From the IMG/VR virus record IMGVR_UViG_3300017987_005500: a stretch of DNA of 64,000 bases, one strand, 5' to 3'. This stretch comes from a virus. Lineage: Duplodnaviria > Heunggongvirae > Uroviricota > Caudoviricetes. The notes under the pieces were generated by a model. It worked only from the letters and a program-made list of their open reading frames with translations. It was not told the origin of the DNA and did not search any database. The first letter of the stretch is position 1, and each line of letters begins with the position of its first letter. Made by a program: the position numbers and the translations under genes. Of this stretch, positions 19,565 to 36,633 are shown piece by piece.

Positions 19565-20704
19565 CTATTTATAAAATTCCTTAATTTTCAATACTACATA
19601 CCTTATCATTTCATCTGTTAAATCTGGATAAATAGGTAAAGCTAAAGTATTTTCAGCTGCATATTCAGAGTTAGGAAAATCTCCTTTTTTATATCTTAAA
19701 TCTCTAAAACATGGTTGAAGGTGAAGAGGTACTGGATAATAAATTTCAGTTTGAATGGCATTATCAAATAAAAATTCTTTTAATTCATCTCTTTTATTTG
19801 GAGCATATATTACATATTGATTATAGATGTGGCGACTTTGAGCTTCAACAGGAAGTGTAATATGTTTAGTTAAATCATTTTCCTCAAACCATTCATTGTA
19901 TTTAGTTGCATTTATTTGACGTGTTAAAGTCCACTTATCCAAATACTTTAATTTAACTGATAATATAGCTGCTTGAATTGCATCAAGTCTAAAGTTTCCT
20001 CCAATGATACCATGATGATATTTTGGAGCTGCTCCATGAGTCCTTAATAATTTCATCCTCTTATATAACTTTTCATCATTTGTAGTAACCATTCCACCAT
20101 CGCCAAATGCTCCTAAATTTTTTGATGGAAAGAATGAGAAACAACCAATGTGACCCATAGATCCTGCTCTATAATTATTATGGACAGCTCCAATTGCTTG
20201 AGCAGCATCTTCAATAATTGAAATTCCATGATTGTTTGCAAATTCAGCTATCTTAGACATATTGGCACATTGACCAAATAAATGAACAGGAATTATTGCT
20301 TTGACTCGAGAAAATCCATATGACATTTCAGTTAACTTTAAAATGATTTCGTCTAAATGATCAATAGATATATTAAATGTGTCTTTATCAATGTCCATAA
20401 AAACAGGAGTCGCTCCGACTCTCGCAATTGCTCCAGCAGTTGCAAAGAATGAATAAGGAGTTGTTATAACAATATCGCCTTGTTTGATATTGAGTGCCAT
20501 AAGAGCTATAATTAGAGCGTCGGTACCTGATGAAACTCCAAGAGCATATCTTGAAACACAATAACTTTTCATTGAATGTTCAAATTTCTCTACAGATTCT
20601 CCAAGAATAAATTGTTGATTTTCACATACTTCATTTATAGCTTCTTGAATCTCTCCTTTGATTTGACTATACTGTTTTTTCAGATCTAATAAAGGGACTT
20701 TCAT
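19565..20704 (-). CDS. DegT/DnrJ/EryC1/StrS sugar aminotransferase (WbpE-like)
   Basis: SSGTDAL, VHLFGQ, EDAAQA, SFFPSKNLGAFGDGG, NFRLDAIQA. Confidence 0.93.
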   Translation of the reverse strand: MKVPLLDLKKQYSQIKGEIQEAINEVCENQQFILGESVEKFEHSMKSYCVSRYALGVSSGTDALIIALMALNIKQGDIVITTPYSFFATAGAIARVGATPVFMDIDKDTFNISIDHLDEIILKLTEMSYGFSRVKAIIPVHLFGQCANMSKIAEFANNHGISIIEDAAQAIGAVHNNYRAGSMGHIGCFSFFPSKNLGAFGDGGMVTTNDEKLYKRMKLLRTHGAAPKYHHGIIGGNFRLDAIQAAILSVKLKYLDKWTLTRQINATKYNEWFEENDLTKHITLPVEAQSRHIYNQYVIYAPNKRDELKEFLFDNAIQTEIYYPVPLHLQPCFRDLRYKKGDFPNSEYAAENTLALPIYPDLTDEMIRYVVLKIKEFYK

Positions 20705-20705
20705 T

Positions 20706-21782
20706 TTATTTTTCCTTTAATAAAATTTCGCATATTCTTTCAGCTGCTTTTCCATCTCTAAGTCCATCATCCAATTTACCTAATTTATAATCAGGATTCA
20801 ATCTTTCTTCTGTATATCTTATAATTTTATCAAAATTGCTACCTGCTAATATATTATGTCCGCTATCTATTGTATCAACCTGTTCTGTATTTTCTCTTAA
20901 TGTGACACAAGGAACTTGTAGAGCAGCTGCTTCAATTTGAAGTCCACCTGAATCAGTTAAAACAACTTTTGCATATTTAACTAAAGTTATAAAGTCCATA
21001 TATCCTAAAGGTTCTAAAACAATAATATCTCTTAAATAATGTTGAAATTTAAATTGTATTATTTTATCTTGAGTCCTTGGATGAATTGGAAAAATTACTC
21101 TATTATTCATTGATAAATAAGAAAGTGCTTTAAGTATAAATTCAAGATTTTCTTTATTATCAACATTAGAAGGTCTATGCATAGTTACTGCGATATAAGG
21201 TTTCTTTCCATATGGATTTTTTGTAATCTTTTTAACATTATATAAAAGATTGTCAATCATTGTATCACCAACTACAAAAATTCTTTTTTCACTATAATTT
21301 TCTTCTAATAAATTTCCTCTTGCTTCATTGATTGTGCAAAATAAATAATCTGAAACAGAGTCTGCTACAATTCTATTTATTTCTTCAGGCATTGACATAT
21401 CATAACTTCTCAATCCTGCTTCAACATGAGCAACCTTTATATGAAGCTTTGAAGCAACTAATGCACAAGCTAAAGTTGAATTGACATCTCCTATAACAAC
21501 TACAAGATCAGGTCTTTCTTTAGTACATACCTTTTCAAATTCAAGCATTACATGAGCTGTTTGATGAGCATGAGATCCTGACCCAACTCCTAAATTATGA
21601 TGAGGTTCTGGAATCTCTAATTCCTGGAAAAAGACCTCCGACATTTTATGGTCGTAATGCTGGCCAGTATGAACAATTTTAAAAAGGACGTCAGGTTGTT
21701 GAGGATACTTTTTTAGTGCTCTTACAATTGGTGCAAGTTTCATAAAGTTTGGTCTTGCTCCAGCAGTTAATAATATTTTCAT
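20706..21782 (-). CDS. Non-hydrolysing UDP-GlcNAc 2-epimerase (WecB/WbpI-like)
   Basis: GARPNFMK, HTGQHYD, GDVNST, HVEAGLRS, PEEINR, TDSGG. Confidence 0.93.
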   Translation of the reverse strand: MKILLTAGARPNFMKLAPIVRALKKYPQQPDVLFKIVHTGQHYDHKMSEVFFQELEIPEPHHNLGVGSGSHAHQTAHVMLEFEKVCTKERPDLVVVIGDVNSTLACALVASKLHIKVAHVEAGLRSYDMSMPEEINRIVADSVSDYLFCTINEARGNLLEENYSEKRIFVVGDTMIDNLLYNVKKITKNPYGKKPYIAVTMHRPSNVDNKENLEFILKALSYLSMNNRVIFPIHPRTQDKIIQFKFQHYLRDIIVLEPLGYMDFITLVKYAKVVLTDSGGLQIEAAALQVPCVTLRENTEQVDTIDSGHNILAGSNFDKIIRYTEERLNPDYKLGKLDDGLRDGKAAERICEILLKEK

Positions 21783-21806
21783 TTTTCACCTATAAGGAAT
21801 CTTATA

Positions 21807-22175
21807 ATGTTAAAATTTAAACAAATTCAAGTTCTTCAATATTCTGTTTTTCCAAAAACAAATTTATGTCTTAAAATGGATGACCGATATAAAAAAATAA
21901 TAGAAAATAGCACACCGTTTTTAACAAGTGAATATAAAACAATAATTGATTTTTTATTTTGTGAAATATTTACTCAATGGAAAAAGAATTGCATGGATTT
22001 CTATTATAATAATGGTCCAAAAATGACTAACGATCCATATATAACTCAAAAAGAAATTAATGCCTTTGATACAATTCTTACTGAATTTGTACTTGGATCA
22101 TTATTGACAATAGATTTTGAAAATCATACATGGGACGAGTTTAAAGTTACTATTAATGATTTAATTTTTGCATAA
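21807..22175 (+). CDS. Hypothetical protein, antisense to the glycan operon
   Basis: 122-aa ORF filling the gap between the epimerase and wbpB-like genes. Confidence 0.55.
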   Translation: MLKFKQIQVLQYSVFPKTNLCLKMDDRYKKIIENSTPFLTSEYKTIIDFLFCEIFTQWKKNCMDFYYNNGPKMTNDPYITQKEINAFDTILTEFVLGSLLTIDFENHTWDEFKVTINDLIFA

Positions 22176-23030
22176 AAATCTTTTATCTCTCATTTTAGTA
22201 ACTAATTCAATAGCTGGCATAACATCTTTAATTGTAAATCCTCTTCCTGCTAATATCTCCTTATATGATTCTATATGAAAATCTGAAAATATATCGTCGA
22301 ATCTTATTTCTTTTCCACTCACAGTTATTGATCTAAAAAATTTTAAATTAGAATCAGGTAAATTGTTTCTATCTACAGAAAGCATCCATTTTATTTCGGC
22401 ACATTCTAAATCAAGATTTCCTCGCACTGTTTTTTCAGTTCTCTCTTCTATAGTCATACTCTCAGGTTTTCCAAACATCCATATAAGCATATCAAAAAAG
22501 TGTATCCCAATATTAGTTTCAATTCCTCCACTTTGCTTTTCATTTCCTTTCCAAGATCTATGATACCATTCGCCCCGCGGGGTTATATATTTCAATTCAA
22601 CATTATAATGTTTATAATCAAGAATTGTATCTTTTAACTCTTTAAGTCTTTTATGTAATCTCAATTGTAAAATATTATATATTTTCTTTCCTGTCTCTTT
22701 CTCAAGTTCTTCTAATTGAGGAAGATTCCAATTGCATAAAACCAAAGGTTTTTCACATATTACATTTGCTCCTAATCTTAACGCCATTTTACAATGAAAT
22801 TCATGAAGATAATTAGGAGAGCATATTGATATATAATCAACTTTATTCTTTGATAAGTATCTATCAAATTGTTCTGTCTTAGTAAAAAATTTACAATTCG
22901 GAAAATAAGAGTCTAAAATTCCAACTGAATCATGTGGATCAAGAGCTGCAATTAATTCATGTCCTGTTTCTTTAATTGCTTTCATATGTCTTGGCGCAAC
23001 ATAACCTACTCCAATTAATGCAAATTTCAT
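22161..23030 (-). CDS. wbpB: UDP-GlcNAcA 3-dehydrogenase (Gfo/Idh/MocA)
   Basis: MKFALIG.GYVAPRHMKAIKETG, DSVGILDSYFP, ICSPNYLH, CEKPL, SWKG, TNIGIHFFD. Start moved to 23030. Confidence 0.9.
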   Translation of the reverse strand: MKFALIGVGYVAPRHMKAIKETGHELIAALDPHDSVGILDSYFPNCKFFTKTEQFDRYLSKNKVDYISICSPNYLHEFHCKMALRLGANVICEKPLVLCNWNLPQLEELEKETGKKIYNILQLRLHKRLKELKDTILDYKHYNVELKYITPRGEWYHRSWKGNEKQSGGIETNIGIHFFDMLIWMFGKPESMTIEERTEKTVRGNLDLECAEIKWMLSVDRNNLPDSNLKFFRSITVSGKEIRFDDIFSDFHIESYKEILAGRGFTIKDVMPAIELVTKMRDKRFLCKN

Positions 23031-23046
23031 AATTATAATTCCTTTC

Positions 23047-23991
23047 TTATATACAAATAGTTTGTGATATTTTACCTGTTGAGCATTCATCTTTATGTCC
23101 ATATTTATAATGACATTTTTTACAACAAGCAATTCCAAAGTCAGGATCTAATGCAAAAAATGGTTCTAATTTTTGTGGTTTAATATGATGAACATCTATA
23201 GCTTCATCTTCACAATATTCGCATTTATAATTTGCTCTTTTTAATACTTCAGTTCTCCAAATATTATATTCAGATTGTGTATAATTATATAACCTCTTAT
23301 TATTTATATTCATTAACTGTTTTATAGTTTTTCCATATAAGGGACATTCGTATTTGCATTCTTCAGAACAATAAAAATATGAAGTATAAGTGCCATCAAT
23401 AGATTCAATTGAAGAAATTCTAAATTCAATTTGTCTTGTTGTTGGAGTGAACCAACCATTTTGTTCTTTTGAATTTGGGCAATTATGATTTTTGCAATGA
23501 ACTTGAATTTCTTTTTCATTTGGTTTGTCAGGGTTATATCTCATTTCTTCAATTTTTGAAAATAATGGATATTTTAAATTGATGTTTTTTATTGTTCTTC
23601 TTTTTCCTGGTGGTTTTTGCTTTTTTCTTGCTTCTTTAATTTTAGAAATATGTTCTTTAGAAAATACTCTTCCTTTTAATTTATTACTTATTTTTTGTCT
23701 CGTTTTTTCAGAAACAATTCTATTTTTCATTTTTTCACAAACTTCATTTGATCTCTTTTTTCCTTTACAAGATTTAGATATTTTTTTTTTAGTTTCTTCA
23801 GTGTGTTTATTTCCTATATTACAATCTCTAATTTTTTGTTTAGTTTCTTCACTAACTATTTTACCTATTAATTTTTTACTAATTTGTTTTTTCATATTTG
23901 GGCAATATTGCCATTTAGATGAACAACACCATTTGCCATTTTTAAATGGAAATTTTGCAGTTTGTTCACATCCATATTCACAAATTTTCAT
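23047..23991 (-). mobile_element. Free-standing HNH homing endonuclease (CEYGC, NUMOD3, WFTPT module, HNH)
   Basis: CEYGC...GKWCC...CP; YPLFSKIEEMRYNPDKP; CEYC...HHIKP...CCKKCH. Confidence 0.8.
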
Positions 23992-24476
23992 ATCAATTCT
24001 CCCTTAGGAACTTTCCCAATATCTTTTGCTGGATGACCCATATACATTCTTCCTGCCATTGTACTTTTTGAAACTAAAGACCCTGCTCCAATTAATGTAT
24101 TCGAAGCAATATCAACTCCAGGTAAGATAGTTACTCTTGCTCCAATTCTTGCTCCATATCTTATAATAGGAGGTTCTGCAATATCTTTATAATCCCTTTT
24201 ATATGCAATAATTTTTGTATTTGTAGTCATACAACCCATCCCCACAAAAACATAATTTCCAATATAACATTCTCTACATATATTTGAAAATTGCATAATC
24301 TGGGTATGTTCTCCAATGATTGCATCAGCAGCTATAAAACAATGAGCTCTTATTTGAGAATGATTTCCAATTTTAACGCCAGGTCTTATAACTGCATAGT
24401 GACCTATATAACAACCTTCTCCAATTTCAGCACCACTTTCAATTATTGCAGTTCGCTCAACTACAGTTTTTTTCAT
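23988..24476 (-). CDS. Hexapeptide-repeat N-acetyltransferase (WbpD-like)
   Basis: Left-handed beta-helix repeats; IGAGSLVSK...GHPA. Confidence 0.85.
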   Translation of the reverse strand: MKKTVVERTAIIESGAEIGEGCYIGHYAVIRPGVKIGNHSQIRAHCFIAADAIIGEHTQIMQFSNICRECYIGNYVFVGMGCMTTNTKIIAYKRDYKDIAEPPIIRYGARIGARVTILPGVDIASNTLIGAGSLVSKSTMAGRMYMGHPAKDIGKVPKGELI

Positions 24477-25042
24477 TAAAGTCTCCTTGAATGAAACATA
24501 AATATTTTAGCGTCTTTTGCTGGATTAGTTTCGATTATTCTCCACTCACAATTATCAAAATCTATAAGACTTTCATAACGATTTATTATTACATTTTGAT
24601 TCTTAAAATATCTTACATGAGATTCATAGTCCCTATTAGGAACTGAAAATATTACTGGACTTCCTGATGGAATTCTTCTTATTACATCCATATCTCTCAC
24701 AATATGCTCAAGAGCTTCAATGCAAACATATATAGCATCATCTGTAAATAAGCTATTAATATCATCGCTTAAAAGATCATTGCATATAAAAGTCTTATCA
24801 GGACTTATTCTTTTAGCTTCTCGAATTACATCTTTTGAAAAATCAATTCCATAATATTTATGTTTCCTAACTAACAATGAGAAATAACCAACTCCACACC
24901 CAAGATCAACAACTGTCCTATAATCTTTATGAGATGGTAAGAGCTTTTTAGCTTCTTCATATATTTTCATATTATGTTCCAAAGCACCCTTTTTTAAATA
25001 ACCTTTTCCTGTATAAAACTCAGGACCTTTTTCAGTTCCCAT
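24476..25042 (-). CDS. Class I SAM-dependent methyltransferase
   Basis: VVDLGCGVG, GIDFS, EALEH, FSVP. Confidence 0.85.
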   Translation of the reverse strand: MGTEKGPEFYTGKGYLKKGALEHNMKIYEEAKKLLPSHKDYRTVVDLGCGVGYFSLLVRKHKYYGIDFSKDVIREAKRISPDKTFICNDLLSDDINSLFTDDAIYVCIEALEHIVRDMDVIRRIPSGSPVIFSVPNRDYESHVRYFKNQNVIINRYESLIDFDNCEWRIIETNPAKDAKIFMFHSRRL

Positions 25043-25963
25043 TTATACCCCCAATTCATCTTTGATTATTTTAGTCATTTCTTTTACTCTCTGTTCACAA
25101 CTATGATGTTTTCTTACAAACTCCATACCTTGATTAGCAATTTTAGCTCTTCGATTTTCATTCTTTGGATTCATATAAAATTTTGCTTTATCAACTAAGT
25201 CATTTAAATCTTTATATATTACTAAATGCTTTTCATCTTCTAACCCTACAATACCTAAATCTTCAGGTTCATCAGCTAAAAGAAAACCTCCACAAGCTAA
25301 TGTCTCAGTATATTTCATTGACAATGATCCAAATATATTATTACTTGTCAATGTAATTTTACAGCGATTAATGTTACTAATTAATTGTTGATGAATAACT
25401 CTTTTCTTTGTTACTTTAAATCCATTTTTTTCAAGGATTTTTCTTGCAGCTTTTCTATGAGGATATATGTCAATTCTATCTGTATAAGCTGCCAATATTC
25501 TATTTTCTTTTTTAGAATTAAAATTTTTATAAATATTTGTATCAACTGAAAAGGGCAAGAGTTTAACCTTATCACATACCTTATTTTTAATATGTAATTT
25601 CAATGCTCTTTGAGTTATAGCAAATACTAAATCATATTTATTTTCTGCAAAGAAAATATTCTGTTTTGAAATTCCAGGTTCTCTAACATAATCAACATTG
25701 ATATGAACTTTTAAAATATCTTTTATTTCTCCAAGTCCTTTAAATGGAACTGAATATCTCCATCCATGTGTCAATATAATATCAGGTTTATCCTTCTTAT
25801 AAAACTTATCTATAACCTTCATAACGGTCAATTTTGGGTTGTAATTTGGATACCCCTCACCATAATATACAACGTCATGTTGTCTCCCTATCTCCTGTCT
25901 AAATAGAGCATGTCCCCAATTATAGCTATGAAATCTATTTGGATGAAGTATTAATATTTTCAA
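25043..25963 (-). CDS. GT-B glycosyltransferase (CgeB/Glyco_trans_1_2-like)
   Basis: LPFSVD; KYTETLACGGFLL; RRAKIANQG..FVRKHHS..QR. Confidence 0.8.
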   Translation of the reverse strand: MKILILHPNRFHSYNWGHALFRQEIGRQHDVVYYGEGYPNYNPKLTVMKVIDKFYKKDKPDIILTHGWRYSVPFKGLGEIKDILKVHINVDYVREPGISKQNIFFAENKYDLVFAITQRALKLHIKNKVCDKVKLLPFSVDTNIYKNFNSKKENRILAAYTDRIDIYPHRKAARKILEKNGFKVTKKRVIHQQLISNINRCKITLTSNNIFGSLSMKYTETLACGGFLLADEPEDLGIVGLEDEKHLVIYKDLNDLVDKAKFYMNPKNENRRAKIANQGMEFVRKHHSCEQRVKEMTKIIKDELGV

Positions 25964-25965
25964 TT

Positions 25966-26634
25966 TTATTTCCTAACTTGAAGTAAGTATGAAAAGCGTC
26001 GTCCGTCTTTTGTAATTTGTTCCGTATCATGAAACTCGCATCCTTTTAAATGTTTCATTTCTTCAAAAAGACGTTCTTTAAGTACAGGTTTATGCATATC
26101 ATCAAATAAGATTATAGTTTGATCATGACAAAAATCTTTGAATAAAGGTTTGAAATAACCTAATCTCTTTTTAGTCATATCAATATCAAAGAATATCAAG
26201 TCAGCTGATTGTTTTGGCACATCTTTCCATGTATAAAAATTGTCAGATGATACCTCATTATGTATACAATATTGTTTACTTTTTTCTAACCAAACTTTAT
26301 CAGAGTCAACTGAAATAGATTTAATATCTTCTCCAGCTGTTTTTATATATTTTCTTATGGCAAATGAGCTGAAACCACTTCCAAAATCAATTACAGTTTT
26401 AGGTTGAACAATTTCTATTAAATGCAAAAAATATGAACAACAAATTAATGATGCTGCCATGCTTCTTGTTGAAACTTCAGTTGTATAATTTTCATAATCT
26501 CTCCTCAGAAGTGAACTATATCTATCCAATTCAAATGTTTCATGTAACTCTCTAATATTAAAATCATGTAAGTTCATTAATTTCTCCCAATAATTGTAAT
26601 ATGTTTCTGAAAAATGTAGGTCCTTTATGTTCAA
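25966..26634 (-). CDS. SAM-dependent methyltransferase-like protein
   Basis: VIDFGSGFSS, SVDSD, DLIFFD, ILFDD. Start uncertain. Confidence 0.65.
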   Translation of the reverse strand: MNIKDLHFSETYYNYWEKLMNLHDFNIRELHETFELDRYSSLLRRDYENYTTEVSTRSMAASLICCSYFLHLIEIVQPKTVIDFGSGFSSFAIRKYIKTAGEDIKSISVDSDKVWLEKSKQYCIHNEVSSDNFYTWKDVPKQSADLIFFDIDMTKKRLGYFKPLFKDFCHDQTIILFDDMHKPVLKERLFEEMKHLKGCEFHDTEQITKDGRRFSYLLQVRK

Positions 26635-27322
26635 TATCTGCTAACTCTATACAATATTTAGCAATTCTTAAATCTGCATAAGGTTCGTCAGATCCAAAAA
26701 TAATTCTTTTACATCCTAATTCATCAACTGCTCTTTCAATTAACCATGGCAATTTAACTGCAGAAGTATCTAAATAAATATTTGGTAATGGCAATGGAGA
26801 TAATATATTAATAGCTTCATCAATAAGATCTGAAGCATTTCCTCCTAAATGTGCAGCAATAAAATTAACATCAGGATTATTTGTAGCTGCTTTAATTAAA
26901 TGAGATATATGACTCTTCTTATCTCTTCCACAATGAACCAAAATAGGTAATTTAAATAATCGAGCTTTATTAATATATGGTTTTAATACATTACTAGAGA
27001 TAACATGTCTGTATACACTTGGGTGATATTTAAGTCCATATATTTCTTTTCTGTGTCTGGTTATTTGATTAAGAACTAATTTATTTTTTGGTTCTATTAA
27101 AAGGAAAGGATATAATTTAAAATTATCTCTATTTTCAAATAAATTTACATCTTTTATTAGATCTAAATTTAATTCATATGTAGCATTAAGATTAGAGATG
27201 TTGGGCATTATAACAGCTCCACTTATATTATGACTTCTTGCAAATTTAATATATGATTTAATGGTGAAATGTCTAGTGCTCTTTTCAGTTTCTCCGATGT
27301 GGACATGTCCATCAATCACCAT
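26564..27322 (-). CDS. Amidohydrolase_2 family metallohydrolase
   Basis: IDGHVH, KYHP, LVHCG, AAHLG, LDTS, FGSDEP. Confidence 0.85.
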   Translation of the reverse strand: MVIDGHVHIGETEKSTRHFTIKSYIKFARSHNISGAVIMPNISNLNATYELNLDLIKDVNLFENRDNFKLYPFLLIEPKNKLVLNQITRHRKEIYGLKYHPSVYRHVISSNVLKPYINKARLFKLPILVHCGRDKKSHISHLIKAATNNPDVNFIAAHLGGNASDLIDEAINILSPLPLPNIYLDTSAVKLPWLIERAVDELGCKRIIFGSDEPYADLRIAKYCIELADIEHKGPTFFRNILQLLGEINELT

Positions 27323-27920
27323 ATGGATACCTCACTTTCCGAGCAATGAATCCCTCAGCATGAATATTATCTGTTGAAATTATAGATCCCCAAAATGCTT
27401 CCCTCTTATCAATTATATCTACATTGATTGCTCCACATTCTATCTGACTTTTAAATAGTTGTAATATTTCTTTCTTTTTTGAAAAATCAATTTTATTAAA
27501 TACATTTGGATTAAAATCATATGTTGAACCACTTGAATAAAAGAAAGTTGATGTATTTCTCTTTCTTCCTGCTGCTTGACCAATTACAGATGCTCTTCTA
27601 TGATCTTGATGTGTATCAAATTCCCAAGGTACAAATAAAATATCTGGAGAATCGCTATCTATATAATTGATTATTCCCTCAGCATTATCATTTGAATTAA
27701 ATGTTTTTAAATGAACTTTCATTCTTGTTTCAATTGTTGTCATTTGTTTAAGCACATTTAATTGTTCAGTAGCTCTATTATTAGGATCTCCTGTCAAATG
27801 TTCATCTTTTTTGATTATAATAAATTTGACATCATCTCCTTTATTTATATGCTTTGATAATGTCCCTGCACAACCTATTTCAATATCATCATAATGAGAA
27901 CCAATAGCAACAATTTTCAT
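27312..27920 (-). CDS. PIG-L/LmbE family N-deacetylase
   Basis: SHYDDIEIGC, DTHQDH, FKSQ. Confidence 0.88.
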   Translation of the reverse strand: MKIVAIGSHYDDIEIGCAGTLSKHINKGDDVKFIIIKKDEHLTGDPNNRATEQLNVLKQMTTIETRMKVHLKTFNSNDNAEGIINYIDSDSPDILFVPWEFDTHQDHRRASVIGQAAGRKRNTSTFFYSSGSTYDFNPNVFNKIDFSKKKEILQLFKSQIECGAINVDIIDKREAFWGSIISTDNIHAEGFIARKVRYPYGD

Positions 27921-28270
27921 GTAGTTTCCTCATAAGATTTTAGTTTTTCAAAACCTTTTGTTTTTAACAATGTAGCTAAATCTCTCCCATCCTTTAACTG
28001 AATTGAGCATTCATATCTTCCATAAATTCCTGCTGAGCTTTTAGATGAAGACAATGTAACATTTTCATCTTCAATTAATCTTCTTACAAACTCATTTGCT
28101 TTCAATCCATGTGTTCTTTCAGCTTCACTTTTAGGACGCCATGTTTCAGGAGTATCAATTCCCATAAGACGAAATCTCTCAGTTCTCTTTGTATGAAAAC
28201 CTAAATCAATTTCAATATCATAAGTATCTCCATCAACGACTCTTATAACGCTTCCTTTATATTGATACAT
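27917..28270 (-). CDS. Thermonuclease (SNase-like)
   Basis: RVVDGDT, RLMGIDTPE, YGR. AAGGAG precedes MYQY at 28270; the ORF is open to 28381. Confidence 0.85.
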   Translation of the reverse strand: MYQYKGSVIRVVDGDTYDIEIDLGFHTKRTERFRLMGIDTPETWRPKSEAERTHGLKANEFVRRLIEDENVTLSSSKSSAGIYGRYECSIQLKDGRDLATLLKTKGFEKLKSYEETT

Positions 28271-28381
28271 TTGAGGTCTCCTTTCGTAATTCAGTTCACC
28301 AGTATTTTCAAACACAATGATTGACATATTAATGTAATCATCTTCAGTGTCTTTCATATGTCTAAATTTTTCAAGTCCCAT

Positions 28382-29146
28382 TTAGAAATTCCAACCTTCT
28401 GGTTTCTCTTTTAAAAACTTTGCTGGGTTACCTGCATAAATTCCTGGAACTTTTATATCTTTAACAACTACAGCACCTGTCCCAATTACAACATCATCAC
28501 AAATTGAAATTCCATTTCTTATAATACAACCTGTCCCAAACCAACAATTTTTTCCAACTGTGACAGATCCTGAAGTCAAAACTCCAGCTGCAAATACACA
28601 ATCATCTCCAATAATATTGTTATGACCTATATTGCAATGAGCTCCAATCTTACAACCTTTTCCAATTTCAGTCATATCCATTGAAGCTCTATGAACAACT
28701 GTGTAAGGTCCTATTTCAGTATTTTCTTTTATCGTAACTCCACCAGTATGAATAAATTGTATTTTCTTTCCGCTCTTTTCATATGCAACTTTCAATCCCT
28801 CAGCATCTAAAATTACAGTTGGGTGAATATGGGTTTGAGGGGAAACAACAAGAAAATGTTCATTCATACGTCGATTAGGTGTATGATTATTAAGTCTGCA
28901 AAATCCATTATGAATTAAAGTAAAATCATAATCAACATTCTCAGAGAAAAAAAATCTAACATTATCAGGAATATGATCAAATGACTCCTTTTCAAGTTCA
29001 GCTGGAATTATACATGCTAAATTAAATATATTATCCCTTAATTTATCAACATATTTCATTGTTCGTGCAAAGGTTACACAACCTTCATCTAACTTATCTA
29101 TTGAGCAAGTCCCATTATACTTTGTTGTAAAATATTCGATATTCAT
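28382..29146 (-). CDS. LpxD-like hexapeptide acyltransferase
   Basis: HTGGVTI..NTEIGP.TVVHR, IGHN, GAVVVKD, GNPA. Confidence 0.8.
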   Translation of the reverse strand: MNIEYFTTKYNGTCSIDKLDEGCVTFARTMKYVDKLRDNIFNLACIIPAELEKESFDHIPDNVRFFFSENVDYDFTLIHNGFCRLNNHTPNRRMNEHFLVVSPQTHIHPTVILDAEGLKVAYEKSGKKIQFIHTGGVTIKENTEIGPYTVVHRASMDMTEIGKGCKIGAHCNIGHNNIIGDDCVFAAGVLTSGSVTVGKNCWFGTGCIIRNGISICDDVVIGTGAVVVKDIKVPGIYAGNPAKFLKEKPEGWNF

Positions 29147-29157
29147 TTATTCACCTA

Positions 29158-29313
29158 TTAAAAGTATTTATCCCATAATCCAAATACTGAAAAACCAATT
29201 GAAATAAAGATTGTTATTAGTACTAATGTTAATAATCTTGATAAGAAAATTTTGAATATTTGAATTGGTTTTTTATTGACTGATGTTTCAAAGCCTAATT
29301 TTATCCATTGCAT
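29158..29313 (-). CDS. 51-aa membrane peptide (absent from ORF track)
   Basis: MQWIKLG...LLTLVLITIFISIGFSVFGLWDKYF*, fills the operon gap. Confidence 0.5.
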   Translation of the reverse strand: MQWIKLGFETSVNKKPIQIFKIFLSRLLTLVLITIFISIGFSVFGLWDKYF

Positions 29314-29314
29314 T

Positions 29315-29851
29315 TTAATATCCCTTTTTCATCTTCTTATATTCAGCGGGAACTCCAGTATAAATAGCATTTTTTATTTTACAATCTTTTGATACAAATG
29401 CTTGTGCTCCAACTATAACTCCTTCTTCAACCATTACATTAGGACCTATATTTGCAGCAGTTCCTATAAAAGCTCCCTGTTTAATAAGAGTCTTTTTAGA
29501 TTCATCTCCAGTATATTTCTTATAAATTGTCATTACATTTGGAGATATAAATACATCATCTTGAATCTCTACATTCCGAGCAATCGTAGCACCGAATCTA
29601 ATTGTAACGTTATTGCCAATAACATTATCACCAGAAGATCTAGCATAACTATCAATAAAACAATTATCACCAATAACCGTACCTTTTTTAAGTAAAACAT
29701 AATTGCCAATCTCCACGTTATCACCTACAGTAACGCCGTCTTCGATTACACAAAAATGCCCCATTTTTACATTTTCTCCAAAATCTGAAGTAAGATCAAC
29801 TATGTTATTTGGAGGAAATTGATAAGCGTAATGCCATTCTCTTTCAGTCAT
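29315..29851 (-). CDS. Hexapeptide-repeat acetyltransferase
   Basis: Left-handed beta-helix repeats; VGAQAFVSKD...GVPA. Confidence 0.85.
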   Translation of the reverse strand: MTEREWHYAYQFPPNNIVDLTSDFGENVKMGHFCVIEDGVTVGDNVEIGNYVLLKKGTVIGDNCFIDSYARSSGDNVIGNNVTIRFGATIARNVEIQDDVFISPNVMTIYKKYTGDESKKTLIKQGAFIGTAANIGPNVMVEEGVIVGAQAFVSKDCKIKNAIYTGVPAEYKKMKKGY

Positions 29852-29852
29852 T

Positions 29853-30608
29853 TTAATCTCCCTTTTTATTCTCTACCCATGTTAAAAATTGGGACCCATC
29901 TCTTGGTTTCGCATATTTGCTTTGTTGTCTCCAATGGAGTCCATTCTTTCCCCAAACAAGAGTTTTGTCTCCAGGTTCTCCATAAATTCCATATTTCCAT
30001 CTCATGACAAAATCTCTCATTTTTTCATTACCATATCTAAATTGTTTTTCAGGATTCTTATCTTCAACCATTAAAGGAAGTGCTTCTTTAATAAAAGTCT
30101 CTCTGATTAAAACAGGATTTAATCCGAATTGTTTTTTACTATCATTAGCTTGAAAGAATCTACCTTTCTCATTATAAGTATAAGGTGAATTAAACAATCT
30201 TGGATTTTTCTTCTTTGGTATGTCATGTTTATATAATCTCAGACATGCCAATTGAGGATTTTTATGTAATACTTTGGTTAATCTTTTTATATCAACCGGT
30301 CTCTTGATTATCCAATCATCTTCTAAATGAAAAATGTAAGGTGTATTTATTTGTTTCCAAGTCCATATTACAGCTTTAGGAAATGATGGTTTATCCGGAA
30401 CATTAAATTTTATATCATTAAAGTATTCATTGCATACTTCTAAAACATCATCTGCAGTTGTTTTTTCATCTCCAACTGGATCAATATTTATAATAAGTCT
30501 ATATTCATTCCTATTTATAAACATATTTTCACAGAATGTTTTGAGTGTCTGTCGTATCACAGTCGGGCGCAATACTGCAGTCATTGTTATATCAACTCTA
30601 AAAGACAT
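29853..30608 (-). CDS. GT-A fold glycosyltransferase
   Basis: TAVLRP, IINIDP, FHLEDDW, LNP. Confidence 0.7.
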   Translation of the reverse strand: MSFRVDITMTAVLRPTVIRQTLKTFCENMFINRNEYRLIINIDPVGDEKTTADDVLEVCNEYFNDIKFNVPDKPSFPKAVIWTWKQINTPYIFHLEDDWIIKRPVDIKRLTKVLHKNPQLACLRLYKHDIPKKKNPRLFNSPYTYNEKGRFFQANDSKKQFGLNPVLIRETFIKEALPLMVEDKNPEKQFRYGNEKMRDFVMRWKYGIYGEPGDKTLVWGKNGLHWRQQSKYAKPRDGSQFLTWVENKKGD

Positions 30609-31203
30609 ATGTTTGTCCTATTAAATTACCAAGTAATGAAGCTATGAAAACTCCTATAATGTAACTAATTATTTTAACCCACTTAGAAATTTTTGGATGT
30701 CTTTGACTTAACCTAAAAAGGTGAGATATTCTTAATTGTGTTTTATATTGGTTAAGTAAATTCTTTGCAACAAAATTATTATATGATTTATATATTGGAG
30801 TCATGAATTATCCTCAATCTGTTCATTTAATTTGTTTATTAATTCATCTCTCTTTTTCATATTTATATCATCGCCTTCATATTGTATTAATTTCCCAGTT
30901 GGTTTATGTGTTATTCTGATAGCTACAATTCCATTATTATTGGAATAAGTATCAATCATTAGATCTTTTAAATTCAATTTCATATCAATTTACACATTTT
31001 TACAGTTAAGCGTATAGTTGGAATATCTTGAGGAACATTGTCATCTTCAATTAAAAAATATATAGCAATATCTCCAGCTTTTTTATCATCATCTTTAACT
31101 CTATACTTTCCACCTATTTTATATTCTTCTGTCCTATTACAAGCTAAAGGTAAATTTATAAAATCTTCAAATTTCATTTCTTCTATTTTATTTTTTTCGC
31201 TCA

Positions 31204-32028
31204 TTATAAAAATCCCTTATATTGTTTACTATCTTCGGTTAATTTAAACTCTAATTTATTATTAGGATTTTGTTGCAAGAACATAGTAAGTCTATCTGGT
31301 ATTTCACCCTTGTCCCAATACTCTGCTATATATCCCATATCAATTGCAACTCCACCCAAATGTTTAATCAACCCAGTATAAAGACGTCCCAATTCTCCAG
31401 CAGATACTAACCACATATCATATTTATCCCAATCATCTTCAATTGTCTTAATCACTTTTGAAAATGATTTATTATAATGATCTTCATAATGCTTAACTAT
31501 ATTAATTAAAGTTATGTCATATTTTTCAAGATTTCTTTTAACTCTTGGACATGCTGTGATGAAAGCTATTTTTCTTTTATTCATTACATTGAGAATATTT
31601 CTTTGGTTTCCCAATTTAAGGCAAAGTAAAAAATTAATTTCAGGATTGCAATATGTATCTATATCAAATTCAGCAAGATTATATAATTCTTTCCACATTT
31701 TCAATCTTCTGTCAGTTTTACCTGACATTGGTTTATAATTCTTTCTACATCGTGGCCAAAATTCTCCATCATAATATACTTGAGGGGTATCTATATAATT
31801 TGCTCGAGATGAAAAGAATGCCCAGGAATTTAAAACATCATATAATTTATGATGAGGAATTCCTTCTTTAAGTACAATTTGATTTATTTGCTCAGTATCG
31901 TTATTAAGCAATGAATGTATATACTTAATTCCTCCATCTCCATATCTTATCAACGAAAAAGGTTTCTTATTTTTAATACATTCATCAATTTCATTAATAA
32001 GATATTTTAATTTGACAACAGGTTGCAT
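31204..32028 (-). CDS. GT-D fold (DUF1792-like) glycosyltransferase
   Basis: FSLIRYGDG...LVSAG...GGVAIDMG. Confidence 0.7.
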   Translation of the reverse strand: MQPVVKLKYLINEIDECIKNKKPFSLIRYGDGGIKYIHSLLNNDTEQINQIVLKEGIPHHKLYDVLNSWAFFSSRANYIDTPQVYYDGEFWPRCRKNYKPMSGKTDRRLKMWKELYNLAEFDIDTYCNPEINFLLCLKLGNQRNILNVMNKRKIAFITACPRVKRNLEKYDITLINIVKHYEDHYNKSFSKVIKTIEDDWDKYDMWLVSAGELGRLYTGLIKHLGGVAIDMGYIAEYWDKGEIPDRLTMFLQQNPNNKLEFKLTEDSKQYKGFL

Positions 32029-33056
32029 TATTTAATACCTTGTTTTATTTTTCTATTTTCAATAAGTTTTTCAAAATGTTTAACCATTTTTCCCATATTC
32101 TCTTCTCTGTTACCCAATTTAAATACTCTCTGTCTTGCTACAGAACCATAATTGAACATTTCATTTCTATTCTTTAATAAATATTCAATTGTATTGTAAA
32201 ATGATTCATAGTTATTTTCGGCAATAAGTCCATTCTCTCCACCAACTACATAGTCCTGCATTCCTGACATTGGAGCATTTGTACACACAACTGGGCAACC
32301 TGTCAACATTGCCTCAGATGGTGGAATATGTAAACCTTCAAGTGAAGTAGGAGCTAACCATAAATTGATATGATTATAAAATGTATTTTTAGTTTTCTTG
32401 TCAGGTCTTTGAAAATATTTATCAATGACTTCAATGTGATGAGGTTGAGATTCATTTCCCATCATCCATAATTGAATTCTATATTTTCTTCTTAGTTTTG
32501 TGACTGCATCAATAATCCATTTAACTCTTTTGGTTTGTCTTTTACCACCTTCATTATAAAGACCTCCCAATATAGTTACATCGTTTGTTTTATTTCTAAT
32601 TTTCAATTGAGTAAAATCAGCAAGGTCATAACCTGGTCTTATTATTTCAGATAAAAAGTTAAGGTCTTCCAATTTACGTTGAAGACAATTGCTATTTACT
32701 ATCTTTTCAGTTGGAGCTTTAAGGACTGAATTGATAATTTGTTTCTCATTCATATTCCATAGCTCAAATCCTCTTATCCAATGTGTTTTCAATCCACATC
32801 TTTCAGGGAGTCTTACAGTAGACCTTACAGTACCAAAACCTGTAGCAATTACAATATCAGCATCTGGCACATTATTAAAACTTCTAATAATTTTATGATC
32901 AGCAATAAGAGGAGTCCAGGTGTGTTGATTTCTTCCAGTATCAATTATTGTGACTTTGTGTCCCAACTTTTTAAGAGTGTTAGCGGATTTAATGATTGTC
33001 ATAGACCCACCGTTATTTCCAAGAGAACAATTCATTAGATTAAATGTTATTCGCAT
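32028..33056 (-). CDS. GT4 family glycosyltransferase
   Basis: GNNGG, DADIVIAT, EGLHIPPSEAMLTGCPVV. Confidence 0.85.
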   Translation of the reverse strand: MRITFNLMNCSLGNNGGSMTIIKSANTLKKLGHKVTIIDTGRNQHTWTPLIADHKIIRSFNNVPDADIVIATGFGTVRSTVRLPERCGLKTHWIRGFELWNMNEKQIINSVLKAPTEKIVNSNCLQRKLEDLNFLSEIIRPGYDLADFTQLKIRNKTNDVTILGGLYNEGGKRQTKRVKWIIDAVTKLRRKYRIQLWMMGNESQPHHIEVIDKYFQRPDKKTKNTFYNHINLWLAPTSLEGLHIPPSEAMLTGCPVVCTNAPMSGMQDYVVGGENGLIAENNYESFYNTIEYLLKNRNEMFNYGSVARQRVFKLGNREENMGKMVKHFEKLIENRKIKQGIK

Positions 33057-33867
33057 TATATTTCTCCTCTAATTCTTTTTGAGTTATCCAACATTTATCT
33101 CGTTTCATAATATTATCTTTCCATGGCAATATTTGAAGGTTTGCTTTATTTCCAATTATTTCAGGTTTAATATTTCTTCTAAATCCTTCTGCTATAGAAA
33201 AAATATGATCAACGTTATAAAAACCATCACCTATTCCTATAGGTAAATTATCAGGATTTATATTTTCTACAGATTGTTTTGTTATAGTTAATACTTTTCT
33301 ATAATAAGCATTGCGTTTTCCAATTTCTTCATCAGTTCTTTTTAAACCTTTCTTAATAAGAGATTCAGAATACATTTTTCTGTATTCTTCTGATAACCAT
33401 CTATCTTTAATTATTTTTGACATATTATCTTTATATTCTTTACTGCTACAAATATATTTATGTTTTATTTTAACATCTTTATCATTCATTGGATTATTAT
33501 TTTTAATAAATAATGAATGATCTGGTCTTTTTCTTCCAAATAATTTACTATTTTCTCCTTTTGGTATTTTTTTACCAATTTGAGATTTAGAATTAACTCT
33601 TCTGTTAATTAAACATTTTCTATGGTTATCATTACAATATAATTTACCTTCACGGGAAATATATTTTGCTATTTGACCACATCCATTTTCGCAAAGGTTG
33701 TTATTAGGATTATTAATTGATTCAAAATTATTTAATTTTCTACCTCTGTTAGATTCACTATTCACTTTTCTTAACCCAGGACATTTATTACAACTTTTTT
33801 CACAACACCATTTACCATTTTTAAATTGATGATTTGCTTTTTGTCCGCATCCATATTCACAAATCAT
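33040..33867 (-). mobile_element. Free-standing HNH homing endonuclease (duplicated CxxGCG module, type-2 HNH)
   Basis: CEYGCG...WCC..KCP and CENGCG; VDHIFSIAEGF...NLQILPWKDN..K. Confidence 0.75.
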
Positions 33868-34703: not shown

Positions 34704-34906
34704 TTTTTATCCTTTATTTCTATTTTATCTACAAAACCTTCAATTTTAAAAGTACCATTTTCTTGTTTAACAACTCTACCTAAAAACATAACTTCATCTG
34801 AATAATCAAAATGTATATCTGTACATTTCATTTCTGCTTCAAATTTATCTGTTTTAAAGATTATAGTTGCTTTATCATATATTTTAGTATCGCTCATGAT
34901 CATTCC

Positions 34907-35335: not shown

Positions 35336-35339
35336 TTAT

Positions 35340-36242: not shown

Positions 36243-36633
36243 ACCTTTTGTGCTAATTTACCAGTTGAGCATTCATCTTTATGACCTTTTGAATAATGAC
36301 ATTTTTCACAACAAGCAATTCCAAAGTCAGGATCTAATGAGAAAAATGGTTCAAGTTTTTGAGGTCTTGAATGATGAGCATGATTTGCTTTTTCTCCACA
36401 ATATTCACATTTGTAATTAGACCTTTTTAAAACTTCCCTTCTCCATATATTATATTCTTCAGCTGTATAATATTCTTCTTTGATAATTCCAGCTTTTATT
36501 TTGCATTGTTTATCAAGTTGACTAGTCTTTATATTATATAAGGACATCTATTCCAATTATCTTCACAACACCACTTACCATTTTTAAACATATATTTTGC
36601 TTCTTGATTACAACCATATTCACAAAGTCTCAT
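36233..36633 (-). pseudogene. Internally deleted, frameshifted HNH homing endonuclease
   Basis: 36633-36529 encodes MRLCEYGCNQEA...WCC...RCPYII*. 36547-36233 encodes the HNH end in another frame. Confidence 0.8.

What the first reader, a model, noticed from the sequence alone, without database searches (positions are those of the whole stretch)
19565..24476. Apparently complete viral pathway to a 2,3-diacetamido uronic acid sugar
Seen: acetyltransferase, WbpB-like dehydrogenase, 2-epimerase and aminotransferase clustered, with the C6 dehydrogenase at 7325-8623. Established: WbpA-B-E-D-I of Pseudomonas aeruginosa (Wlb in Bordetella) convert UDP-GlcNAc to UDP-ManNAc3NAcA. Inference: the phage can make this rare surface sugar itself. 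The first step is a TviB/WbpO-type enzyme encoded 11 kb away.
Basis: partly seen in the sequence, partly recalled or inferred. Interest (0 to 1): 0.7.

Follow-up and report, generated by a model that had tools for sequence, protein, structure and literature searches.

The report
Jumbo-phage diacetamido uronic sugar pathway
An uncultured phage of about 300 kb carries its own genes to turn the host's UDP-GlcNAc into a rare acidic 2,3-diacetamido sugar; this recurs in uncultured phages, but the last enzyme here is an unusual, untested type.

Summary
On the minus strand lie a DegT aminotransferase (19565-20704), a 2-epimerase (20706-21782), a true WbpB relative (22161-23030) and a left-handed-helix N-acetyltransferase (23988-24476). 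A C6 dehydrogenase sits at 7325-8623.

Four steps, from UDP-GlcNAc to UDP-GlcNAc3NAcA, are well supported by sequence and by linkage in 165 WbpB loci from elsewhere. The C6 dehydrogenase is the TviB type, not the type that sits directly beside WbpB.

The fifth step is the weak point. The epimerase is not a WbpI/WlbD orthologue. It belongs to a sister family that looks like UDP-GlcNAc 2-epimerases, and it lacks the A/Y/W signature of the Thermus enzyme. However, its whole phage clade (8 of 8) has replaced the arginine that binds the C3' hydroxyl with glutamine. That clade also stays linked to WbpB. So a manno product is likely but not shown.

This is not unique. IMG/VR phage contigs carry WbpB modules, and earlier notes of this scan report similar pathways in at least four other phages. 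No GenBank phage record has a WbpB orthologue. The acceptor is unknown: many soluble glycosyltransferases surround the genes, and the window encodes no membrane assembly proteins. Interest is moderate.

The parts
7325..8623 (-). UDP-GlcNAc C6 dehydrogenase, TviB/WbpO type (432 aa, TTG start). Proposed step 1: UDP-GlcNAc to UDP-GlcNAcA.
   Evidence: It has all three UDPG_MGDP_dh domains. The NCBIfam TviB model gives 442 bits (cut-off 592), against 195-220 bits for the UDP-ManNAc dehydrogenase models. GLGYVG and the catalytic Cys258 in GGHCIGVDPYY are present. The same subtype lies within 6 kb of WbpB in 19 of 165 loci. A 91% homologue sits on a contig of the same length (57,655 bp) as the closest WbpB and epimerase relatives.
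23988..24476 (-). Left-handed beta-helix N-acetyltransferase (162 aa). Proposed step 4, like WbpD/WlbB: UDP-GlcNAc3NA to UDP-GlcNAc3NAcA.
   Evidence: Hexapep E = 5e-26. The best solved relatives are nucleotide-sugar 3-N-acetyltransferases: 7S43, 4MZU, WlbB 3MQG (56 bits) and QdtC. Of 112 acetyltransferases of this type found beside WbpB, 100 match this ORF better than its paralogue at 29315.
23047..23991 (-). Free-standing NUMOD3 + HNH homing endonuclease between the acetyltransferase and WbpB. It is a passenger, not part of the pathway.
   Evidence: Pfam NUMOD3 E = 1e-11 and PHROG HNH and homing-endonuclease families. It is 57% identical to the copy at 50483-51520, and at least six related copies lie in the window.
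22161..23030 (-). WbpB/WlbA-type UDP-GlcNAcA 3-dehydrogenase (289 aa). Proposed step 2.
   Evidence: It scores 284 bits against WbpB 3OA2 and 277 bits against 3O9Z; the next oxidoreductase scores 41 bits. The EKP lysine (K94) and the NIGIHFFD histidine are conserved. There are thousands of homologues, which JGI names UDP-N-acetyl-2-amino-2-deoxyglucuronate dehydrogenase.
20706..21782 (-). Non-hydrolysing UDP-sugar 2-epimerase (358 aa) of a phage-specific L/I-I-Q subtype. Proposed step 5: UDP-GlcNAc3NAcA to UDP-ManNAc3NAcA. This step is an inference.
   Evidence: Epimerase_2 E = 7e-108. It scores 326 bits against the M. jannaschii UDP-GlcNAc 2-epimerase 4NEQ, 301 bits against the T. thermophilus UDP-GlcNAc3NAcA 2-epimerase 8SXV, and about 150 bits against WecB chains. 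Catalytic and allosteric residues are intact. At the three specificity positions it has L16, I97 and Q301, where Thermus has A18, Y96 and W307.
19565..20704 (-). DegT-family sugar C3 aminotransferase (379 aa). Proposed step 3, like WbpE/WlbC.
   Evidence: DegT E = 1e-115. The PLP lysine K195 lies in SFFPSKNLGAFGDGG. The top 13 PDB matches score 224-338 bits and include QdtB, WbpE and others that I recognise as C3 aminotransferases. The score then drops to 172 bits for perosamine synthases, which are C4 enzymes. It is 50-54% identical to aminotransferases in WbpB-AcT-AT operons, for example L039, L056, L065, L069, L079 and L081.
24476..39353 (-). Flanking glycan-modification block, a likely consumer of the sugar. 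It holds two methyltransferases, at least five glycosyltransferase-like genes (25043, 31204, 32028, 38064, probably 29853), a PIG-L deacetylase, an amidohydrolase, an LpxD-like acyltransferase and a second 3-N-acetyltransferase-like paralogue. It also holds two unnamed paralogues (33864, 35340) and two more homing-endonuclease copies.
   Evidence: A hydropathy scan found no ORF with more than two hydrophobic segments anywhere in the window.

Best explanation
The phage carries its own Wbp/Wlb-like nucleotide-sugar pathway and feeds it with host UDP-GlcNAc.

1. The distal TviB-type dehydrogenase oxidises C6 to give UDP-GlcNAcA.
2. WbpB oxidises C3. By analogy with WbpB/WlbA, it recycles its NADH with 2-oxoglutarate.
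3. The DegT aminotransferase puts an amino group on C3, using glutamate and so returning 2-oxoglutarate.
4. The small left-handed-helix transferase acetylates that amine, giving UDP-GlcNAc3NAcA.
5. The adjacent 2-epimerase then most likely inverts C2 to give UDP-ManNAc3NAcA. It comes from a different lineage than WbpI/WlbD and has glutamine where UDP-GlcNAc epimerases hold the C3'-OH with arginine.

The neighbouring soluble glycosyltransferases probably add the sugar to an acceptor that does not need phage-encoded lipid-carrier machinery. The most likely acceptors are phage proteins or a host surface intermediate.

Shown by sequence: enzyme families, catalytic residues and linkage. Inferred: every substrate, the order of steps, the manno product and the acceptor.
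For: - **WbpB:** membership is unambiguous, at 284 bits against 41 bits for the next chain, with catalytic motifs kept.
- **Aminotransferase:** it ranks with sugar C3 aminotransferases. It is 50-54% identical to aminotransferases in WbpB-AcT-AT operons.
- **Acetyltransferase:** its best solved relatives are 3-N-acetyltransferases, including WlbB. It matches 100 of 112 WbpB-adjacent acetyltransferases better than its paralogue does.
- **Dehydrogenase:** it is the TviB type, at 442 bits against 195-220 bits for the UDP-ManNAc dehydrogenase models. That subtype lies within 6 kb of WbpB in 19 of 165 loci. No TviC-like 4-epimerase is in the window; the only SDR there is an ADP-heptose 6-epimerase.
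- **Epimerase, active site:** catalytic and allosteric residues are intact. The arginine that binds the C3' hydroxyl in UDP-GlcNAc epimerases (paper PMC10622841) is glutamine in all 8 members of the phage clade, which span 58-100% identity. Of the 120 homologues listed, 107 keep the arginine.
- **Epimerase, linkage:** in loci picked only for WbpB, 15 of 18 epimerases within 6 kb of WbpB lack that arginine. Six clade members lie on contigs of exactly the same length as the six closest WbpB homologues.
- **Operon:** the genes are co-directional with overlapping or near-touching stops and starts.
Against: - The epimerase scores higher against a UDP-GlcNAc 2-epimerase (4NEQ, 326 bits) than against the UDP-GlcNAc3NAcA enzyme (8SXV, 301 bits).
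- It has Leu and Ile where the Thermus enzyme has Ala18 and Tyr96, and Gln rather than Trp307.
- In the tree it is sister to an arginine-retaining family, not to the WbpB-linked A/Y/W clade.
- A few arginine-retaining epimerases also sit beside WbpB (L009, L034, L121, L215), so arginine loss is not a strict marker.
- The C6 dehydrogenase is about 11 kb away among nucleotide-metabolism genes. It is below the TviB cut-off.
- The acetyltransferase is only 25-37% identical to WbpB-adjacent ones and scores 56 bits against WlbB.
- A second, similar paralogue exists at 29315.
Confidence: 0.6

Rival explanations
1. The pathway stops at the gluco sugar UDP-GlcNAc3NAcA. The epimerase is an ordinary UDP-GlcNAc 2-epimerase that supplies UDP-ManNAc as a second, separate donor for the neighbouring glycosyltransferases.
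For: The best solved match is the M. jannaschii UDP-GlcNAc 2-epimerase. The enzyme is sister to a large arginine-retaining family. Members of that family often sit beside a sugar C6 dehydrogenase with no WbpB in view, although the flanks held were short. Most WbpB loci (144 of 165) have no epimerase within 6 kb, so gluco products are common. Gln could still hydrogen-bond a C3' hydroxyl.
Against: The Arg-to-Gln change is fixed in all 8 clade members, while 107 of the 120 listed homologues keep Arg. The His/Gln that faces the C6' hydroxyl in UDP-GlcNAc enzymes is Ile here. The clade stays linked to WbpB across 58-100% identity. WbpB-adjacent epimerases overwhelmingly lack the arginine.
Confidence: 0.28
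2. The distal C6 dehydrogenase serves another purpose. In that case the WbpB/aminotransferase/acetyltransferase trio either uses host-made UDP-GlcNAcA or acts on UDP-GlcNAc itself, giving the non-acidic UDP-GlcNAc3NAc as in Psychrobacter or GnnA/GnnB-type routes.
For: The dehydrogenase is 11 kb away, between a dCMP deaminase and a nucleotidase-like gene. Only 29 of 165 WbpB loci have a C6 dehydrogenase within 6 kb. A non-uronic diacetamido pathway exists in bacteria (paper PMC8040287, listed).
Against: The phage enzyme is about 50% identical to authentic WbpB over 281 residues. It scores only 23 bits on the UDP-GlcNAc 3-dehydrogenase model. The same TviB-type dehydrogenase is the commonest C6 dehydrogenase near WbpB. 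The closest relative contig keeps dehydrogenase, WbpB and epimerase within 57.6 kb. No TviC-like partner for the dehydrogenase is present in the window.
Confidence: 0.09
3. The aminotransferase and acetyltransferase work on a dTDP-3-keto-6-deoxyhexose, like QdtB/QdtC or FdtB/FdtC, and not on the WbpB product.
For: QdtB (283 bits) outranks WbpE (234 bits) for the aminotransferase. dTDP-sugar 3-N-acetyltransferases (7S43, 4MZU) outrank WlbB for the acetyltransferase.
Against: No RmlA/RmlB-type 4,6-dehydratase or 3,4-ketoisomerase was found among the annotated ORFs of the window. The only source of a 3-keto sugar encoded here is WbpB, which lies between the two genes.
Confidence: 0.03

Closest known systems
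Wbp/Wlb pathway to UDP-ManNAc3NAcA: P. aeruginosa WbpA-B-E-D-I, Bordetella WlbA-D, and the Thermus thermophilus HB27 five-gene set (paper PMC10622841)
   Same: The same five chemical steps are encoded. WbpB is a clear family member. The aminotransferase and acetyltransferase belong to the same enzyme classes and sit beside WbpB, as they do in bacteria.
   Different: The C6 dehydrogenase is TviB-type and 11 kb away. The epimerase belongs to another lineage, with L/I/Q where the Thermus enzyme has A/Y/W. A homing endonuclease sits inside the gene set. No Wzx, Wzy or initiating transferase accompanies it. The carrier is a phage of about 308 kb.
T. thermophilus UDP-GlcNAc3NAcA 2-epimerase (PDB 8SXV-8SYH)
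   Same: It has the same fold, the same catalytic Asp/Glu/His residues and the same UDP-GlcNAc allosteric site residues. It also lacks the C3'-OH-binding arginine. The bit score is 301.
   Different: Trp307 is replaced by Gln, Tyr96 by Ile and Ala18 by Leu. The phage enzyme branches with a different epimerase family.
Methanocaldococcus jannaschii UDP-GlcNAc 2-epimerase (PDB 4NEQ) and the bacterial [I/V]-V-R epimerase family
   Same: This is the highest-scoring solved relative (326 bits). The phage clade is sister to the [I/V]-V-R family and shares its NFMK and GDVNST motifs.
   Different: Those enzymes keep the TER-P arginine motif. The phage clade has TEQ-V/I-D.
WbpB modules in uncultured phage contigs (IMG/VR loci L001-L006), and Wbp-like pathways noted earlier by this scan in other phages and in a giant virus
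   Same: These are phage-borne WbpB genes with an adjacent acetyltransferase and aminotransferase, sometimes with an epimerase. L002 carries UvsX-like and gp46-like genes, and L004 carries PhoH.
   Different: They are only 50-54% identical to this WbpB. Their epimerases, where present, are the V-Y-W (WbpI-like) type. None is a close relative of this phage.

Membership tests
WbpB/WlbA UDP-GlcNAcA 3-dehydrogenase (EC 1.1.1.335) | Sequence membership separate from other Gfo/Idh/MocA oxidoreductases | tested here: met
   284 and 277 bits against WbpB structures 3OA2 and 3O9Z; the next chain scores 41 bits.
WbpB/WlbA UDP-GlcNAcA 3-dehydrogenase (EC 1.1.1.335) | Conserved catalytic motifs: the EKP lysine and the N-x-G-x-H-F histidine | tested here: met
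   K94 lies in ICEKPL and H177 in NIGIHFFD. Both are invariant in a 25-sequence family alignment.
WbpB/WlbA UDP-GlcNAcA 3-dehydrogenase (EC 1.1.1.335) | 2-oxoglutarate-dependent NADH recycling, and activity on UDP-GlcNAcA | not testable with these tools
   This needs an enzyme assay.
WbpE/WlbC UDP-3-keto-GlcNAcA aminotransferase | DegT fold with the PLP lysine | tested here: met
   PF01041 E = 1e-115. K195 lies in SFFPSKNLGAFGDGG.
WbpE/WlbC UDP-3-keto-GlcNAcA aminotransferase | Closer to WbpE than to other sugar C3 aminotransferases | tested here: inconclusive
   WbpE scores 234 bits, while 7B0D scores 338 and QdtB 283. However, aminotransferases in WbpB operons are 50-54% identical, at 380-407 bits.
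WbpD/WlbB 3-N-acetyltransferase | Small left-handed-helix transferase of the QdtC/WlbB class, next to WbpB | tested here: met
   The best solved relatives are 7S43, 4MZU, WlbB 3MQG and QdtC. It is separated from WbpB only by the homing endonuclease.
WbpD/WlbB 3-N-acetyltransferase | Orthology to WlbB/WbpD | tested here: inconclusive
   It scores 56 bits against WlbB and is 25-37% identical to WbpB-adjacent acetyltransferases. A paralogue at 29315 is almost as similar.
UDP-GlcNAc 6-dehydrogenase (WbpA function; TviB/WbpO subfamily) | Three-domain nucleotide-sugar dehydrogenase with catalytic cysteine | tested here: met
   All three domains are present. Cys258 lies in GGHCIGVDPYY.
UDP-GlcNAc 6-dehydrogenase (WbpA function; TviB/WbpO subfamily) | Reaches the NCBIfam TviB equivalog cut-off | tested here: not met
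   It scores 442 bits against a cut-off of 592. WbpB-linked bacterial examples of the same subtype score 494 and 602 bits.
UDP-GlcNAc 6-dehydrogenase (WbpA function; TviB/WbpO subfamily) | The dehydrogenase subtype that sits directly upstream of WbpB (probably the WbpA-like type) | tested here: not met
   Dehydrogenases touching WbpB (L063, L065, L080, L029, L215) are only 33-35% identical to the phage enzyme. They form another subfamily.
WbpI/WlbD UDP-GlcNAc3NAcA 2-epimerase | Non-hydrolysing 2-epimerase fold with catalytic Asp/Glu/Glu/His and allosteric-site residues | tested here: met
   GARP, HTGQH, GD at 98-99, VEAGLRS, PEEINR, HR, HPRT and DSGG all align with the Thermus enzyme.
WbpI/WlbD UDP-GlcNAc3NAcA 2-epimerase | Ala18/Tyr96/Trp307 specificity signature (Thoden et al. 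2023) | tested here: not met
   The phage has Leu16, Ile97 and Gln301. The WbpB-linked epimerases that carry Trp at the third position (14 near WbpB) have A, V or H at the first, Y or F at the second, then W.
WbpI/WlbD UDP-GlcNAc3NAcA 2-epimerase | Absence of the arginine that binds the C3' hydroxyl of UDP-GlcNAc | tested here: met
   The motif is TEQ rather than TER, fixed in 8 of 8 clade members.
WbpI/WlbD UDP-GlcNAc3NAcA 2-epimerase | Branches within the WbpB-linked epimerase clade | tested here: not met
   The FastTree places the phage clade (support 0.99) as sister (0.89) to the [I/V]-V-R family, apart from the x-Y-W clade.
WbpI/WlbD UDP-GlcNAc3NAcA 2-epimerase | Activity on UDP-GlcNAc3NAcA | not testable with these tools
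   This needs an enzyme assay.

The most novel reading that the evidence does not exclude
The phage clade's epimerase is an independent, second invention of a UDP-GlcNAc3NAcA 2-epimerase. It would derive from a UDP-GlcNAc 2-epimerase family by an Arg-to-Gln change (with Ile at the C6'-facing position), where bacteria use Trp/Tyr/Ala. Its product, with heptose and other sugars, would be built by about eight soluble phage glycosyltransferases directly onto phage proteins. That would give a jumbo phage an acidic glycan coat made without lipid carriers.
Probability: 0.25. Interest if true: 0.65.

Novelty: new member of a known kind. Interest (0 to 1): 0.4.

Why it matters
If the pathway works as read, a jumbo phage does not depend on its host for a rare acidic diacetamido sugar. 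Until now this sugar has been described mainly in O-antigens and in archaeal N-glycans (the latter from my own knowledge). It adds to growing evidence that large phages carry whole glycan toolkits.

The practical gains are modest:
- a compact enzyme set for making UDP-GlcNAc3NAcA or UDP-ManNAc3NAcA;
- a natural test of how 2-epimerases choose their C3' substituent;
- a marker (WbpB plus acetyltransferase) for finding phages that decorate themselves or their hosts.

It does not open a new kind of biology by itself.

Tried and rejected
**Searches that found nothing useful**
- Megablast of 19000-27000 against 50,697 GenBank phage records gave no match.
- tblastn of WbpB against the same records gave only generic oxidoreductases at 29% identity or less, so no cultured or deposited phage has an orthologue.
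- An IMG/VR scan with the epimerase found no relative.
- An IMG/VR scan with the C6 dehydrogenase found nine loci, none with WbpB in view.
The 70-99% relatives seen in the protein database could therefore not be fetched.
- Literature searches found no paper describing a phage Wbp pathway. One virome survey lists wbp genes as auxiliary genes. Searches for 7B0D and for a WbpE structure paper gave nothing, and PMC2694220 is not held.

- No whole genome is held for this window.

**Readings considered and rejected**
- A TviB/TviC pair making UDP-GalNAcA: the only SDR in the window is an ADP-heptose 6-epimerase.
- An epimerase-first route through UDP-ManNAc: the dehydrogenase is not the UDP-ManNAc type.
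- Und-P-based assembly encoded by the phage: no polytopic membrane protein was found in the window.

Full report
**What the window is**

The window has about 30% G+C. It encodes a Dda-like helicase, a gp44-type clamp loader, a ribonucleotide reductase and a DNA ligase. It also holds many HNH homing endonucleases. It has no nucleotide match among GenBank phages, and its clamp loader is only about 30% identical to those of T4-like cyanophages. The exact epimerase protein occurs on a contig of 308,335 bp. That fits earlier notes of this scan, which describe an uncultured phage of about 300 kb. No whole genome is held for it.

**Checking the observation**

All five ORFs are real and lie on the minus strand. 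In transcription order the cluster reads:
- acetyltransferase, 23988-24476
- NUMOD3 + HNH homing endonuclease, 23047-23991
- WbpB, 22161-23030
- a 378-nt stretch with no minus-strand gene
- 2-epimerase, 20706-21782
- aminotransferase, 19565-20704

The true WbpB start is the ATG at 23030, behind an AAGAAAGGA ribosome-binding site. The C6 dehydrogenase is at 7325-8623. It is an intergenic insertion: it overlaps the acetyltransferase stop and ends 17 nt before WbpB. It belongs to a family with at least six copies in the window.

**Steps 2 to 4**

- **WbpB.** It scores 284 and 277 bits against the two solved WbpB/WlbA proteins, at about 50% identity, and 41 bits against the next Gfo/Idh/MocA chain. 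The EKP lysine and the NIGIHFFD histidine are conserved. Thousands of homologues exist, which JGI names UDP-N-acetyl-2-amino-2-deoxyglucuronate dehydrogenase.
- **Aminotransferase.** It has the DegT fold and the PLP lysine. Its 13 best solved relatives score 224-338 bits and include QdtB, WbpE and others that I recognise as sugar C3 aminotransferases. After them the score drops to 172 bits for perosamine synthases, which are C4 enzymes. It is not specifically closest to WbpE (234 bits). In bacterial WbpB-AcT-AT operons, however, the aminotransferase is 50-54% identical to it.
- **Acetyltransferase.** It is a small left-handed-helix enzyme. Its best solved relatives are nucleotide-sugar 3-N-acetyltransferases, including WlbB.

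I collected 165 WbpB loci: 6 from IMG/VR, 80 from genomes and 80 from metagenomes (165 of these 166 had a WbpB ORF above 200 bits). In 112 of them this acetyltransferase type lies within 6 kb of WbpB. In 100 of those it matches the ORF at 23988 better than the phage's second copy at 29315. A DegT aminotransferase is within 6 kb in 67 loci. The window encodes no other source of a 3-keto sugar, and no dTDP-sugar genes were found.

**Step 1**

The distal dehydrogenase has all three domains, the Rossmann motif and the catalytic cysteine. It scores 442 bits on the TviB model. TviB is a UDP-GlcNAc C6 dehydrogenase. The score is below the 592-bit cut-off, but the UDP-ManNAc dehydrogenase models score only 195-220 bits.

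Two dehydrogenase subtypes accompany WbpB in bacteria. The TviB type lies within 6 kb in 19 loci and is 43-52% identical to the phage enzyme. A second subtype touches WbpB directly in five or six loci and is 33-35% identical. The phage therefore uses the commoner TviB type, not the subtype that I take to be WbpA proper. That assignment is my inference, because no WbpA reference sequence was available.

A 91% homologue lies on a 57,655-bp contig. The closest WbpB relative (99%) and epimerase relative (89%) lie on contigs of exactly that length. The window has no TviC-like partner. Its only SDR, at 60514-61533, is an ADP-heptose 6-epimerase (346 bits, cut-off 274.6).

**Step 5, the weak point**

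Thoden et al. 2023 (PMC10622841) solved the Thermus UDP-GlcNAc3NAcA 2-epimerase. They named three changes relative to UDP-GlcNAc 2-epimerases:

| Role in UDP-GlcNAc enzymes | UDP-GlcNAc enzymes | Thermus enzyme | Phage enzyme |
|---|---|---|---|
| Binds the C3' hydroxyl | Arg | Trp307 | Gln301 |
| Faces the C6' hydroxyl | His/Gln | Tyr96 | Ile97 |
| Packing next to the lysine | Leu/Met | Ala18 | Leu16 |

The phage enzyme keeps every catalytic and allosteric residue. The arginine is gone and the C6'-facing polar residue is gone, but the residues are not the Thermus ones.

A tree of 108 epimerases gives three groups:
- **Classical WecB**, with M/L, H/Q, R at the three positions.
- **An x-Y/F-W clade.** All 15 of its members come from WbpB loci, and 14 lie within 6 kb of WbpB.
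- **A large [I/V]-V-R family.**

The phage clade has eight proteins of 58-100% identity, all L/I-I-Q. It is sister to the third family. Members of that family often sit beside a C6 dehydrogenase of the second subtype, with no WbpB in view, although the flanks held were short. That fits UDP-GlcNAc epimerases.

Three facts point the other way for the phage clade:
- The Arg-to-Gln change is fixed in all eight members, while 107 of the 120 listed homologues keep Arg.
- Six clade members lie on contigs whose lengths equal those of the six closest WbpB homologues: 57655, 14546, 4549, 3156, 13250 and 71220 bp. The linkage therefore appears to persist across deep divergence.
- Among loci chosen only for WbpB, 15 of 18 epimerases within 6 kb lack the arginine (14 Trp, 1 Ile). 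The Ile case, L088, belongs to the same third family and overlaps WbpB.

Against this, L009, L034, L121 and L215 show arginine-type epimerases beside WbpB. I put the manno product at roughly 55-60%. A plain UDP-GlcNAc 2-epimerase making a separate UDP-ManNAc donor gets a little under 30%. An epimerase-first route is unlikely, because the dehydrogenase is not of the UDP-ManNAc type.

**What the sugar is for**

The genes lie at the end of a long leftward block that runs to about 39.3 kb. That block contains:
- two methyltransferases;
- glycosyltransferase-like genes at 25043, 31204, 32028 and 38064 (GT9), and probably 29853;
- a PIG-L deacetylase, an amidohydrolase and an LpxD-like acyltransferase;
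- a second 3-N-acetyltransferase-like gene;
- two unnamed paralogues, at 33864 and 35340.

A simple hydropathy scan finds no ORF with more than two hydrophobic segments anywhere in the window. So no flippase, polymerase or polyprenyl-phosphate transferase is encoded here. The acceptor is most likely a soluble or peripheral one, such as phage proteins or a host surface intermediate. This is inference only.

**How new it is**

No GenBank phage record has a WbpB orthologue. The full-text library yielded no description of a phage Wbp pathway beyond wbp genes listed as auxiliary genes in a virome survey.

IMG/VR, however, holds phage contigs with WbpB plus acetyltransferase and aminotransferase. 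L003 and L004 also carry a V-Y-W epimerase. L002 carries UvsX-like and gp46-like genes, and L004 carries PhoH. Earlier notes of this scan report Wbp-like pathways in at least four other phages and one giant virus. I did not check those notes beyond my own IMG/VR loci.

The finding is thus a new member of a recurring, so far unpublished, kind of phage auxiliary pathway. Its distinctive features are completeness on paper, the unusual epimerase lineage and the endonuclease inside the gene set.

**Limits**

Only 64 kb of about 308 kb was visible.

Noticed in passing
window 2532-3329, 23047-23991, 33040-33867, 36233-36633, 50483-51520, 55396-56466: At least six related NUMOD3/zinc-finger + HNH homing endonuclease copies lie in 64 kb. 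The copies at 23047 and 50483 are 57% identical. The one at 36233-36633 looks split into an N-terminal piece and a separate 104-aa HNH ORF. Three of the six lie inside the glycan gene block.
   Followed up: partly
window 60514-61533 (+), with 38064-39353 (-): There is a phage-encoded ADP-L-glycero-D-manno-heptose 6-epimerase (HldD; 346 bits, above the 274.6 cut-off). A GT9 heptosyltransferase-like gene lies 21 kb away. Heptose may therefore be another component of the phage's glycan.
   Followed up: partly
window 27312-29851 (-): A PIG-L/BshB-like de-N-acetylase, an SNase-like nuclease, an LpxD-like N-acyltransferase (254 aa) and a second QdtC/WlbB-class acetyltransferase (178 aa, 30% identical to the one at 23988) lie in a row. 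One possibility is removal of an N-acetyl group and re-acylation with another acyl group.
   Followed up: no
window 33864-34703 and 35340-36242 (-): Two paralogous proteins (33% identical, E = 2e-38) have no Pfam, NCBIfam or PHROG match. They sit among the glycosyltransferases and may be a new transferase family.
   Followed up: no
window 21807-22175 (+): A 122-aa ORF lies on the opposite strand, in the only gap of the pathway operon, between WbpB and the epimerase. Its composition looks protein-like. It was not searched.
   Followed up: no
window 5104-5907 and 1721-2464 (-): A dATP/dGTP diphosphohydrolase N-terminal domain (MazZ-like, E = 3e-28) is fused to DUF1653. An Apyc1-like metallo-beta-lactamase-fold protein (anti-Pycsar family, 72 bits) is also present. 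A dCMP deaminase, an NT5C-like nucleotidase and a QueC-like gene lie nearby.
   Followed up: no
loci L215 (G035), L063, L065, L080, L029: In several bacteria a C6 dehydrogenase subtype sits directly upstream of WbpB. It reaches neither the WecC nor the TviB cut-off. In L215 it also follows an arginine-type [I/V]-V-R epimerase, in the order AT-Epi-DH-WbpB. This may be an alternative order of steps to the same sugar.
   Followed up: partly
window 11118-12188 (-): A further GT4-type glycosyltransferase (356 aa) lies apart from the main block, 2.5 kb from the C6 dehydrogenase region.
   Followed up: no
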